From NCBI RefSeq assembly GCF_009914755.1, contig NC_060946.1: a stretch of DNA of 64,000 nucleotides; one strand, 5' to 3'. The notes under the pieces are model-generated. The model was not told where the DNA came from. It saw nothing but the letters and a program-made list of their open reading frames with translations, and searched no databases. Below, in pieces: positions 49,356 through 52,834 of the stretch. Numbering within the stretch: position 1 is the first letter of the stretch; every line of letters begins with the position of its first letter. Both the position numbers and the translations under genes were made by a program. Origin of the DNA: the human T2T-CHM13v2.0 reference genome, Homo sapiens.

Positions 49356-50395
49356 GAAGTGCTATCCCATCATCTGGGTTGTATTCTATTCAGAAAGGCG
49401 TCACTAACCCCTCAGTGCTGTGATCCTTGCGGACGCTGCCCACCATAGGCTGAGATGAGGCACAGGGTCTGGTTCTAAATAGAATCAGAAGGCACTGGAA
49501 AGTGCAATGTCAGAGGACGATGAGGGCTGAATTTCATATAATCTCAGCCTCTACTGGTGCGCATGGAAAACGAGGCCCAGAGCAAAAATGCCTTTCTCGA
49601 GATCACACTGTGGACCCCAAGCCCATTGGAGTTGTATTCCATGCTACCTCTCACCCCTCACTTCTTCTTGAAATTCTTCCATCTCTAAGCGTGTGCAGTA
49701 TCTACAGGGGACACCAAACAATGAGTTTTATAAGATTTATCTCAAAGACACCTGATGAGTTCACCAGGAAGGAGATGCTAGCAAAACCCCATTGTGCATG
49801 TTGCAGGGCTGGGGAGGCCCCAAAACACCAGAAAACTTCTCTAGGGTCACAGAACTGGTAAGATCAAGGAGGTTTGGCCCAGCACTGTCTCCTCACACCT
49901 AGGGCCTTAGTTGCCTCCAGGTCTTCCCAGGGTGACGAGGGGGCACTTTTTTTGCATAATTTGGAACAGGTAAGAAGTTGGTAGGAACAGGTAAGAATAG
50001 GGGGTTGGTGAGTGGTCAGAAGCCCAGTGGGGCCTTTGAGTAGGTCTTATGGACGGAAGGAGCATAGGGGATTGGACCTGGAAGAAGTGAGTCTCCTCTC
50101 AGATCCTGGGCCTTGTGATGGGCTTTCTCCCACCCTGGAGTCTTCCGGCATTTTCCCCCTGCCAAGGGTTGAAATGGCCTTAGCTGTTTCTCCAGACTCC
50201 CTTTGATGTTAAAGGATGAAATCCAATTATATTCCTTTAAGTTAAAGCATTCTTCTAAAGCATCTTGTCCTGTGCACTGTCTCTAAAATGAGGAGGGGAC
50301 GAGGCCTCCCCAGGCCCTTTCCCTCCATATCAGAAGTGGAGCTTCAGGTGGCCTAGAGGGGATTTCATGTAGCCCTCCCTCTGGAAGGTGCTGAG

Positions 50396-50695
50396 TTCTT
50401 TTTTTTTTTTTTTTTTGAGACAGAGTCTCGCTCTGTCATCCAGGCTGGAGTGCAGTGGCGTGACCTCGGCTCACTGCAAGCTCTGCCTCCTGGGTCCACA
50501 CCATTCTCCTGCCTCAGCCTCCCAAGTAGCTGGGACTACAGGCGCCCGCCACCATGCCTGGCTAATTTTCTGTATTTTTAGTAGACACGGCTTCACCGTG
50601 TTAGCCAGGATGGTGTCGATCTCCTGACCTTGTGATCCGCCCACCTCGGCCTCCCAAAGTGCTGGGATTATAGGCGTGAGCCACCACGCCCGGCC
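50396..50695 (-). mobile_element. AluY-type with TSD ggaaggtgct(g/c)ag
   Basis: Reverse-complement Alu; matching flanks. Confidence 0.93.
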
Positions 50696-50907
50696 AGGAA
50701 GGTGCTCAGCTCTGACCCAGGTGCTGCTGCACTGCCATTTGACATCCAAAAGCCCGCGTCTCCTCATCTCTACCATGAGGATGATTTTTGAGGACTCACT
50801 GGGATGATGCTCTTGTAGGCTACTAATACAGCAGGTGCCACTGCTTCACAGCTGACAAACACCGTGAGGATGCCTTGAAGGCACTAATGTTTTTCATTAT
50901 TCTCCAC

Positions 50908-51194
50908 TTTTTTTTTTTTTTGAGTCTTGTTTTTTCACCCAGGCTGGAGTCCAGTGGTGCAATCTTGGCTCACTGCAACCTCCAACTCCCGGGTTCATGT
51001 GATTCTTCTGCTTCAGCCTCTCGAGTAGCTGGGACTACAGGCACATGCCGCCAAGCCCAGCTAATTTTTTTTTTTTTTTTTAGTAGAGACAGGGTTTCAC
51101 CATATTGGCCACGCTGGCCTCAAACTCCTGATCTCGTGATCCGCCCGCCTCAGCCTCCCAAAGTGCTGGGATTACAGGCGTGAGCCACCACGCC
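50908..51194 (-). mobile_element. AluS-type with TSD tattctccact
   Basis: Reverse-complement Alu; matching flanks. Confidence 0.9.
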
Positions 51195-51370
51195 CTATTC
51201 TCCACTCTTATGTCAAATTTTAAAGTCTAGAACCTTTTCCACCATGGGAACCCATGTCCTCCACATCCACAAGTCTCCAAAGGGTTGGGGATTCCTTGTG
51301 TGAGCTCCAGATCCCAATCCTCTGGTGGTTCATGGTGTTGTCAATGACATGTCTCTCCTTGTCACCCCAG

Positions 51371-51546
51371 TATGAAAATGAGGAGACTTACAGGGTGCGA
51401 ACATTCCAGATAGGTACAGGGGAGAAACTGGTGAAGGCCCTGGTTCCAGCCTTTCTGGGTAGAACCATCTCCTCCTATGCCACCTGTTTGGGCCCCTCCT
51501 GGGACTTTATCACCGTGCCAGACTTCATGGAGGAACTGTTTACCAG
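51371..51546 (+). pseudogene. RALGDS/RGL-family RasGEF N-terminal (REM) exon, open frame, canonical splice sites
   Basis: ccccag|YENEETYRVRTFQIGTGEKLVKALVPAFLGRTISSYATCLGPSWDFITVPDFMEELFT-AG|gtgaat versus RALGDS YENE...CKVRTVKAGTLEKLVEHLVPAFQGSDLSYVTIFLCTYRAFTTTQQVLDLLFKR. Confidence 0.85.
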
Positions 51547-52151
51547 GTGAATGTCCATCCCCTCCAACTCACAGTGGTGACTGTCTCCGACTAGCTGTGT
51601 CTTGAGGATGTCACCGAAGCCCTCTGAGCCTGTTTGCTCCTTTGTAAAGCAGTGAGATGAACCTCATAGGGTTCTTATGGGAACTAAATGGCCTAAGGCA
51701 TGGCAAGCAGGTCCCAAGTGCCTGGCTCTGTGAAAAGGCTGCTGAGCATGCTATAGTTCACATTTATTATCTTTCCCTTCAATGGAGCTCTGGGCATGCT
51801 GTCTCAATGGCCCATATCCCTGTTTGGAAAAGCACACAGAAAGCAAATCTGTTTTTGCATTTGTAAAGGATGTCTGTGATTCTTTCTAACTGGTCTTTGT
51901 CCTTGACAGAGAAAGAACAGGGGTCCCTTGGGTCCTGAAGGAGGGGCCCCAGGCTCACTCAGGTATCTGTAGAGGTTCTGGTTGAGGTTCATTCATTCAA
52001 CAGATATATATGAAAAATGTAATTTATGCAGTCACTTTTCCAGTGGCTTGGCATAATTTAGTAAAGAAAGCAGATGACAATACCTGGGCCTCAATTCTAC
52101 TTGAAGTGTCAGATACTTCCAGTAGAGCGCATAAGCAGGTCATATCCACAG

Positions 52152-52250
52152 AATGTTAGATGTGACAGCCTCATGGCCTCCTCTAGGTATGGTGGCATCT
52201 TCCCAGGTTCTGGGACTAGGATGACATAGCCCAGGAACAAGTATAAACTG
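52152..52250 (+). pseudogene. Next RALGDS-like exon, disrupted
   Basis: ccacag|..RCDSLMASSRYGGIFPGS / frameshift / D*DDIAQEQV* versus RALGDS RCDALTASSRYGCILPYSDEDGGPQDQLK. Confidence 0.8.
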
Positions 52251-52834
52251 GGTGGATTTAGGGTTCTGAAGGGTCTTTTGACTTCCAAACATACGTGGAG
52301 GAAATATGTGGACTGTAGCTGGGAAGAGACTGAAAAAACCCTGGGTCTCATCTCTCTTATGATTCCCATGAGAAAGTTGAGATCTAGGGACTTTCCCTAC
52401 AAAAGGAAAGGAGAGTTGTAGATGGCACCTTAGGTCCCCAGTAAAATATAGGGGAGGCTATGGCCAGGGCCGACCCCCAAGAGAACCATTCCCAGCACAG
52501 GGGTTTCCTATCTCTGCCTGTCCTCCATGCCACATCTGCCTCTCCCAACCCAAGCACCAAGTGGCCCAGAGCTGGAGTTTTGATGGGCAACCTGCTCACA
52601 CATCTGCCTGGAGCTGCAGTTGTGAGTGCCCAGGTGCTCAGCACTGTGTGCCAGGGCCTTTGGGAAGAGAATGTCAGTAGGAAGCCGGGGCCCGCAAGGG
52701 TCTGTATAGCCCTGCTGCATGGCCAGGTCTGCCCCTATCAAGACAGCACAGATGGCTGGGGCTGGAGTGGGGCTGTCCTCTACACAGGAAGCAACAAGCC
52801 AGGGGCCCAGAACCACAATAAAAAGCCCCGCAAG

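What the first reader, a model, noticed from the sequence alone, without database searches (positions are those of the whole stretch)
50330..52650. Unprocessed RALGDS/RGL-type RasGEF gene relic tail-to-tail with RTCB
Seen: exon 51371-51546 is stop-free, has canonical splice sites and matches the RALGDS REM-domain exon from YENE to the split Arg codon. Exon 52152-52250 matches the next RALGDS segment (RCDSLMASSRYGG) but has frameshifts and stops; an internal tag|G at 52186/52187 would be in phase. Weaker traces of the preceding exon (GDFM*PSLWKVL versus GVIYSISLRKVQ, ~50358-50393, split by an AluY) and the following exon (~52525-52645) are colinear. No CDC25 catalytic exons are visible before RTCB. 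Established: RGL4 at 22q11.23 is a RALGDS-derived gene near IGLL1. Inference: an apparently unannotated member of the RALGDS-like duplicate family, truncated by a rearrangement.
Basis: partly seen in the sequence, partly recalled or inferred. Interest (0 to 1): 0.8.

Follow-up and report, generated by a model that had tools for sequence, protein, structure and literature searches.

The report
Upstream remnant of RGL4P1 pseudogene
The open RalGDS-like exon is real, but it belongs to the already annotated pseudogene RGL4P1, an old, broken partial copy of the RGL4 gene that shows no sign of being kept by selection.

Summary
Exon 51371-51546 is as described: 58 open codons with AG/GT borders. It is clearly homologous to the first REM (RasGEF_N) exon of RALGDS, and 52152-52250 is the decayed next exon.

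It is not a separate unannotated gene. Window 49228-53240 is one colinear copy, introns included, of the 5' part of the RGL4 locus (chr22 ~24.134-24.140 Mb) at 77-85% identity. The annotated RGL4P1 (52583-53232) is only its last 650 bases.

Macaque and orangutan RGL4 gene models use this same exon as coding sequence. In human RGL4 it carries a +1 frameshift.

The window copy is dead in other ways:
- It took three Alu insertions.
- Exon C has a frameshift and a stop.
- Homology stops inside the next RGL4 exon at ~53240, 258 bases before RTCB's end. There are no CDC25 exons.

The exon is no better conserved than its introns, and the window branch shows 4 silent against 8 replacement changes, so its open frame looks like neutral survival.

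A side result: about 22 or more older copies (63-76% identity) of the same RALGDS-like 5' region are scattered through the genome.

The parts
49228..50090 (+). Homolog of the region just upstream of RGL4's start-codon exon (C22:24134414-24135248). It is overlapped by the last exon of lncRNA LOC339666 (49172-50259).
   Evidence: 80% identity over 877 columns; lncRNA exon from the hub's table
50090..50091 (.). Deletion junction. 2.2 kb of the RGL4-type unit (C22:24135249-24137450) is missing here. That stretch holds the start-codon exon (24135367-24135507) and REM exon A (24135916-24136053).
   Evidence: Window 50090 aligns to both 24135248 and 24137451. The 2.2-kb piece has 65 genome matches, none in the window.
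50090..50906 (+). Homolog of the intron between exons A and B (50090-50316 and 50788-50906), split by an Alu.
   Evidence: 85% and 79% identity to C22:24137451-24137798
50389..50701 (-). Young Alu insertion, absent from the RGL4 locus.
   Evidence: ~92% identity to many Alus; masked in the hub's table; poly-T at its left end
50905..51195 (-). Older Alu insertion flanked by the direct repeat TATTCTCCAC. It is absent from the RGL4 locus and independent of the Alu seen nearby in the chr7 copies.
   Evidence: different target-site duplications
51371..51546 (+). REM exon B: open, 58 codons plus 2 bases, AG/GT borders. It corresponds to RasGEF_N profile positions 1-49 through its homology to RALGDS exon B.
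51547..52151 (+). Intron B-C. It is homologous at DNA level to the RGL4 intron and, in part, to the RALGDS intron.
   Evidence: 79.3% identity to RGL4; 65-67% to RALGDS; matches in several frames
52152..52250 (+). REM exon C relic. It is out of phase with exon B and has a TAG at 52227-52229.
52583..52759 (+). Homolog of human RGL4's first coding exon, from the Met onward. This is the start of the annotated RGL4P1.
   Evidence: 83.6% nucleotide identity to the RGL4 locus; ORFs compared
52830..53147 (+). Young Alu inserted in the short intron after that exon.
   Evidence: 93-96% identity to many Alus; poly-A at 53115-53138
53188..53240 (+). Truncated relic of the exon-D equivalent (RGL4's second coding exon), with a 4-nt insertion. 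Homology to RGL4 stops at ~53240, 258 bases before RTCB's annotated 3' end at 53498.

Best explanation
Window 49228-53240 is a non-functional, unprocessed partial duplicate of the 5' end of RGL4. [quoted passage not shown] This block is the full extent of the pseudogene annotated as RGL4P1.

Shown here:
- A genomic segment with RGL4's upstream region, its vestigial REM exons with their introns, and its first coding exon was copied next to the 3' end of RTCB.
- The copy ends inside the next RGL4 exon.
- It lacks 2.2 kb holding the start-codon exon and REM exon A, gained three Alus, and carries a frameshift and a stop in exon C.

Inferred:
- Exon B (51371-51546) stayed open and kept its splice signals by chance during neutral decay.
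- It has no start codon exon upstream, no in-frame continuation downstream and no catalytic domain, so it makes no RalGEF.
For: - Colinear homology, introns included, runs from window 49228 to 53238 against C22:24134414-24139567 at 77-85% identity. Only repeats match outside that block.
- The window and the RGL4 locus share an 18-21-nt deletion in exon B that RALGDS and 5 other copies lack. They are sisters in an 11-row ML tree with UFboot 91.
- That partner locus carries open RasGEF exons (Pfam E 2e-13). It matches macaque and orangutan 'ral-GDS-related protein' models exon by exon.
- Lesions: the 2.2-kb piece is absent, exon C is broken, exon D has a 4-nt insertion and is truncated, and no CDC25 exon is present.
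- Neutrality: exon B is 81.5% identical to its RGL4 counterpart, against 83.0% and 79.3% for the flanking introns. The 12 changes placed on the window branch are 4 silent and 8 replacement.
- Rfam finds nothing in 49000-53600.
Against: - The frame containing exon B is open for 108 codons (51224-51550), and both splice signals are intact.
- One unnamed predicted protein record (P0001, 179 aa) is built on 51254-51547, plus a piece near 51899-51961 and 53554-53748, at 98-99% identity. Gene predictors therefore find it plausible.
- No RNA data and no other primate genome could be examined here, so use as a non-coding exon is not excluded.
- The test of selection rests on 12 substitutions and one paralog, which gives it low power.
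Confidence: 0.9

Rival explanations
1. Exon B, or the 108-codon frame around it, has been taken over as an exon of a transcript at this locus. That transcript could be a lncRNA, for instance a read-on from LOC339666, or a small primate-specific protein like the 179-aa prediction.
For: The frame is open at 51224-51550 and the AG/GT signals are intact. Predicted record P0001 matches at 98-99%. The lncRNA LOC339666 ends at 50259, inside the duplicated block (hub table).
Against: The RefSeq table given with the finding has no exon between 50260 and 52582. Divergence in the exon equals that in the introns, and changes are 4 silent against 8 replacement. P0001's other pieces are intron sequence and the antisense of RTCB's 3' end, which is typical of ab initio prediction.
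Confidence: 0.06
2. This is an independent, unannotated RALGDS-derived gene relic that is not a copy of RGL4 and merely lies beside RGL4P1.
For: Exon B on its own looks RALGDS-like. The annotation covers only 52583-53232.
Against: One uninterrupted colinear alignment (51218-52816, 77% identity) joins exon B, exon C and the annotated RGL4P1 part to the RGL4 locus. The deletion shared with RGL4 and the tree point the same way. Exon B is 74% identical to macaque RGL4 but 43% to RALGDS.
Confidence: 0.02
3. The likeness arises by chance, or the stretch is an interspersed repeat, since about 22 or more other places in the genome match it.
For: A 1.5-kb query gave 34 matches in 24 places at 65-81% identity.
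Against: Shuffle tests gave 0 of 5000 for both exons. The other copies carry the same exons in the same order, with RALGDS-like translations. Copy number is tens, not thousands.
Confidence: 0.01

Closest known systems
RGL4P1 (RGL4 pseudogene 1), RefSeq annotation at window 52583-53232
   Same: It is the same locus and the same duplication event. The annotated part is the 3' end of the block described here.
   Different: The annotation covers only the stretch that matches the human RGL4 protein. The block extends 3.3 kb further upstream to 49228 and includes two REM-exon relics that human RGL4 protein does not contain.
Human RGL4 locus (C22 ~24.134-24.146 Mb in this assembly; the name is inferred from the RGL4P1 annotation and from the names of the monkey proteins that map onto it)
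   Same: Same order of upstream region, exon B, intron, exon C, first coding exon and exon D at 77-85% identity, with the shared exon-B deletion.
   Different: RGL4 keeps the start-codon exon, exon A and all CDC25 exons. Its exon B has a +1 frameshift near 24138034, whereas the window's exon B is open.
Predicted RGL4 ('ral-GDS-related protein') isoforms of macaques, other Old World monkeys, gibbon and orangutan
   Same: Their N-terminal extension is encoded by the ortholog of this exon, at 63-76% identity to the window peptide. 38 proteins had E <= 0.01 among 44 candidates.
   Different: There the exon sits in a full reading frame that runs from the start exon, with or without exon A, through B and D to the CDC25 domain. 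32 of the 38 carry Pfam RasGEF and none lists RasGEF_N. These are predictions, not tested proteins.
RALGDS REM (RasGEF_N) exons on chromosome 9
   Same: Exon B and C relics align to consecutive RALGDS exons, and part of the intron between them still aligns at DNA level. The chr9 locus is identified as RALGDS by a PDB match to 3kh0, E 2.5e-33.
   Different: Identity is only 43-44% in exon B. The RALGDS exon scores RasGEF_N at E 1.5e-16, while the window exon gives no Pfam hit.

Membership tests
Unprocessed (duplicated) pseudogene of RGL4 | Colinear DNA homology to the parent locus, introns and flanks included | tested here: met
   Window 49228-53238 against C22:24134414-24139567 in five colinear pieces at 77-85% identity
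Unprocessed (duplicated) pseudogene of RGL4 | Disabling lesions or truncation relative to the parent | tested here: met
   The 2.2 kb with the start exon and exon A is missing. Exon C has a frameshift and a TAG. Exon D has a 4-nt insertion and ends at ~53240. No CDC25 exon is present.
Unprocessed (duplicated) pseudogene of RGL4 | No purifying selection on the former coding parts | tested here: inconclusive
   Exon and intron divergence are equal, and changes are 4 silent against 8 replacement. That fits neutrality, but it rests on only 12 changes and no orthologs.
RasGEF_N / REM domain (Pfam PF00618) | Match to the family profile at or above its cut-off | tested here: not met
   0 families at E <= 10 for exon B, its 108-aa frame and the exon C frame
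RasGEF_N / REM domain (Pfam PF00618) | Homology to an exon that does match the profile | tested here: met
   RALGDS exon B matches PF00618 positions 1-49, E 1.5e-16. The window exon aligns to it end to end.
Functional RalGEF (RALGDS/RGL1-4) | CDC25-type RasGEF catalytic domain | tested here: not met
   The RGL4 CDC25 exon finds RGL4, RALGDS and places on chr1, chr19 and chr6, but nothing in the window (0 of 12 matches). Homology ends at ~53240.
Processed pseudogene (retrocopy) | Introns removed, poly-A tail | tested here: not met
   Introns are retained and homologous to the RGL4 introns

The most novel reading that the evidence does not exclude
RGL4P1 may be the youngest and best preserved member of an old family that I could not find in the open literature searched. 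The family consists of about 22 or more unprocessed relics of the 5' (REM) end of a RALGDS-derived gene. They lie mostly near centromeres (chr7, 12, 16), on acrocentric short arms, and on chr1 and chrY, and RGL4 is the only working survivor. Together the copies would record the stepwise loss of the REM domain in the RGL4 lineage. Exon B, coding in monkeys and orangutan, frameshifted in human RGL4 and open in RGL4P1, could still be spliced into some transcript.
Probability: 0.3. Interest if true: 0.35.

Novelty: already known. Interest (0 to 1): 0.2.

Why it matters
The practical result is small. The RGL4P1 model is about six times too short: 650 bases against a 4.0-kb block. An exon-like open frame beside RTCB can be set aside as pseudogene debris rather than a new RasGEF.

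It also gives a tidy picture of how RGL4 lost its REM domain:
- The REM exons are still visible upstream of the human gene.
- One of them is coding in the gene models of other catarrhines.
- Human RGL4 carries a frameshift in it.

The scattered older copies may interest people who study ancient duplications below the usual 90% identity cut-off.

Tried and rejected
- Pfam on the single exons gave no hit.
- PDB sequence search with exon B gave only chance-level hits, E > 0.6. With a large RALGDS exon it gave nothing.
- Rfam found nothing in 49000-53600.
- Literature searches: 'RGL4P1' 0 papers; 'RGL4' + 'REM domain' 0; 'ral-GDS-related protein' 0; 'hRgr' + 'exon' 8 listed, none relevant by title; 'LOC339666' 1 CNV paper, listing only; 'Rgr oncogene' + 'RalGDS' 6 listed, not read.
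- Shared Alu between the window and the chr7 copies (alignments ran through both): rejected, because the target-site duplications differ.
- Unit boundary or transposon end at window ~50090, where all copies stop matching: rejected, because that is the window's own 2.2-kb deletion and the other copies continue into the missing piece.
Only three were fetched, so most dispersed copies were seen as match tables only.
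Full report
**1. The observation**

Read directly, the sequence shows AG at 51369-51370 and GT at 51547-51548. The frame from 51371 to 51544 has 58 sense codons followed by two bases of a split codon. The stop-to-stop frame around it is 108 codons, 51224-51550.

Exon C starts after AG at 52150-52151. 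Its RALGDS-like frame is not the one delivered by exon B, and it runs into TAG at 52227-52229.

**2. Is the likeness more than chance?**

Pfam sees nothing in the single exons, and PDB sequences give only chance-level hits.

The direct comparison is clear, however:
- In a six-frame search of the whole 3.1-Gb assembly, the 58-residue peptide found 8 places at E <= 10.
  - Itself.
  - C22:24138021-24138140 (E 4e-11).
  - chr1:242.30 Mb (1.5e-6).
  - chrY:12.70 Mb (2e-6).
  - C9:145324410-145324565 (E 0.025).
  - Three places with E > 4.
- The chr9 locus is RALGDS. A downstream exon of it matches PDB 3kh0, 'Ral guanine nucleotide dissociation stimulator', at E 2.5e-33.
- The matched chr9 exon is RasGEF_N positions 1-49 of 106 at E 1.5e-16.
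- In local alignments the window exon is 43-44% identical to that exon over 65-70 residues.
- Against 5000 shuffles, exon B scores 93 versus 21.6 +/- 4.2 and exon C scores 63 versus 17.2 +/- 3.8. No shuffle reached either score.
- Part of the intron between the two exons also still aligns to the RALGDS intron.

**3. What the block is**

A DNA search of the genome with 51200-52700 gave a 76%-identical match over nearly the full length at C22:24137818-24139349.

With a longer query and with local blastn, the window aligns colinearly to that locus in five pieces:

| Window | C22 | Identity |
|---|---|---|
| 49228-50090 | 24134414-24135248 | 80% |
| 50090-50316 | 24137451-24137677 | 85% |
| 50788-50906 | 24137678-24137798 | 79% |
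| 51218-52816 | 24137818-24139465 | 77% |
| 53139-53238 | 24139474-24139567 | 80% |

Outside 49228-53238, only Alu-type repeats match.

The partner locus continues into open RasGEF exons. Macaque and orangutan proteins named 'ral-GDS-related protein' map onto it exon by exon. Together with the hub's label RGL4P1 for 52583-53232, I take it to be RGL4. That name is an inference, not something a tool reported.

[quoted passage not shown] A passage in PMC3141262 says RGL4 is present in primates and other mammals and missing in rodents.

**4. Anatomy of the copy**

The monkey and orangutan models give the exon map of the RGL4 locus:
- A start-codon exon at 24135367-24135507, open in human.
- REM exon A at 24135916-24136053.
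- REM exon B at 24137975-24138146.
- Exon D at 24139528-24139728.
- The CDC25 exons from 24140960.

Compared with that map, the window copy differs as follows:
- **Missing start and exon A.** Window position 50090 aligns to both sides of the stretch 24135249-24137450, so the start-codon exon and exon A are missing. A genome search with that 2.2-kb piece returned 65 matches, none in the window. Other family copies do contain it.
The candidate at 50358-50393 is therefore not exon A, and it scores like shuffled sequence.
52583-52759 is the homolog of human RGL4's own first coding exon.
- **The true exon D.** The true equivalent of the next RALGDS exon, exon D, is the short relic at ~53188-53240. 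It carries a 4-nt insertion, and homology stops there, 258 bases before RTCB's annotated end at 53498.
- **Alu insertions.** Three Alus (50389-50701, 50905-51195, 52830-53147) are absent from the RGL4 locus.

**5. Relationship to RGL4**

In an alignment of eight copies, the window and the RGL4 locus alone lack an 18-21-nt segment of exon B. RALGDS and the chr1, chrY, chr7 (two) and chr16 copies all have it.

I built a maximum-likelihood tree of 11 rows on window 51215-52254, rooted on RALGDS. The 274-base chr22:25.16 Mb fragment was left out.
- The tree puts the window and RGL4 together with support 91. Their branch lengths are 0.084 and 0.144 substitutions per site.
- With recalled neutral rates of 1-2.2e-9 per site per year, that corresponds to roughly 50-110 million years. 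This is an order-of-magnitude inference only.
- It agrees with exon B being 74% identical to macaque RGL4, while the human RGL4 locus is 85-95% identical to macaque RGL4 in the same exon.

**6. Is the open exon kept by selection?**

Identity to the RGL4 locus is similar across all parts:

| Part | Identity to RGL4 locus |
|---|---|
| Upstream intron | 83.0% |
| Exon B | 81.5% |
| Intron B-C | 79.3% |
| Exon C | 87.6% |
| RGL4 first coding exon homolog | 83.6% |

Of the 32 differences in exon B, 12 could be placed on the window branch using outgroup copies. They are 4 silent and 8 replacement changes.

This is what neutral decay gives, though the numbers are small. In human RGL4 the same exon has a +1 frameshift. 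Which of the two copies kept an open frame therefore looks like chance.

**7. What others have predicted**

The exon peptide found 38 predicted proteins at E <= 0.01 among 44 candidates.
- Of the 38, 36 carry a source name and 2 (P0001, P0014) do not. Every organism named in the table is a catarrhine primate.
- 32 of the 38 carry Pfam RasGEF, and none lists RasGEF_N.
- In these models exon B is part of an N-terminal extension. The macaque models join the start exon, A, B and D. The orangutan model joins the start exon, B and D.
- One unnamed 179-aa record (P0001) is built on the window's own frame 51254-51547, plus a piece near 51899-51961 and 53554-53748. That is intron sequence and the antisense of RTCB's 3' end, as ab initio predictors produce. 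I give it little weight.

**8. Side result: a scattered older family**

- The 1.5-kb query matched 24 places in 34 pieces. That is 22 besides the window itself and RGL4, at 65-81% identity.
  - They lie on chr7 (57.5, 57.7 and 64.3-65.4 Mb), chr12, chr16 and chr1 (two places), and on chrY.
  - Five are on acrocentric short arms, and single places are on chr9, chr18, chr19 and chr22:25.16 Mb.
- The 2.2-kb piece found further places on chr12, chr7, chr16, chr5 and chr21. Part of that query (about 1512-1900) behaves like an interspersed repeat.
- The copies I could fetch carry the same exons in order. The chr7 65.09 Mb copy has exon A. The chr1, chrY and chr16 copies have exon B. The chr12 9.3 Mb copy has exons C and D, which are 62% and 53% identical to RALGDS.
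- None of these places appears among the 12 matches of the RGL4 CDC25 exon. The one near miss is a weak hit (E 0.46) 51 kb from the chr16 copy, on the other strand.
- The chr22:25.16 Mb piece is a 354-base fragment 91% identical to the RGL4 locus.
I found no paper on this family in the searches listed under Tried and rejected. Subscription journals and pseudogene catalogues were not searchable here.

**9. Verdict**

The feature is real and correctly read as a RALGDS-type REM exon relic. It is, however, the unannotated upstream part of an annotated pseudogene, RGL4P1, a dead partial copy of RGL4. Interest is low. The useful outputs are corrected pseudogene bounds, the account of REM loss in RGL4, and a lead on an old dispersed family.

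Noticed in passing
G000 C22:24137975-24138146 (locus L002/L017): Human RGL4's own copy of REM exon B has a +1 frameshift near 24138034. Macaque and orangutan RGL4 models read the exon through as coding. The upstream start-codon exon (24135367-24135507) is still open in human.
   Followed up: partly
G000: chr7 56.7-65.4 Mb, chr12 9.3/15.1/34.1/38.0 Mb, chr16 32.0-32.2 and 39.0 Mb, chr1 226.85 and 242.30 Mb, chrY 12.70 Mb, short arms of chr13/14/15/21/22: About 22 or more old copies (63-76% identity) of the RALGDS-like 5' (REM) region, introns included. The chr12 9.3 Mb copy keeps exons C and D closer to RALGDS than RGL4 does. The chr1 and chrY copies are near-identical.
   Followed up: partly
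window 41000-43181: The stretch around IGLCOR22-2 matches C22:22486887-22489309 at 81% identity. An immunoglobulin-lambda-constant orphon and an RGL4 fragment therefore lie 6 kb apart here. Whether they arrived together was not examined.
   Followed up: no
window 49172-50259: The last exon of lncRNA LOC339666 lies almost wholly inside the part of the duplicated block that is homologous to the region just upstream of RGL4's start-codon exon (hub table).
   Followed up: no
window 45433-46467: A ~734-base stretch is 90-92% identical to places on chrX, chr10 and chr13, and 79% to a place on chr6. It is probably a repeat or a retrocopy and was not identified.
   Followed up: no
G000 chr2:132.02 Mb, chr14:13.28 and 13.75 Mb, chr22:16.26 Mb, chr8:47.51 Mb: Weak relics, 35-38% identical and each with stops, match the RGL4 CDC25 exon in pericentromeric places that hold no REM-region copy in my tables.
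   Followed up: no
G000 C22:25162053-25162406 (L006): A 354-base fragment of the RGL4 exon-C region at 91% identity. It is a much younger stray duplicate.
   Followed up: partly
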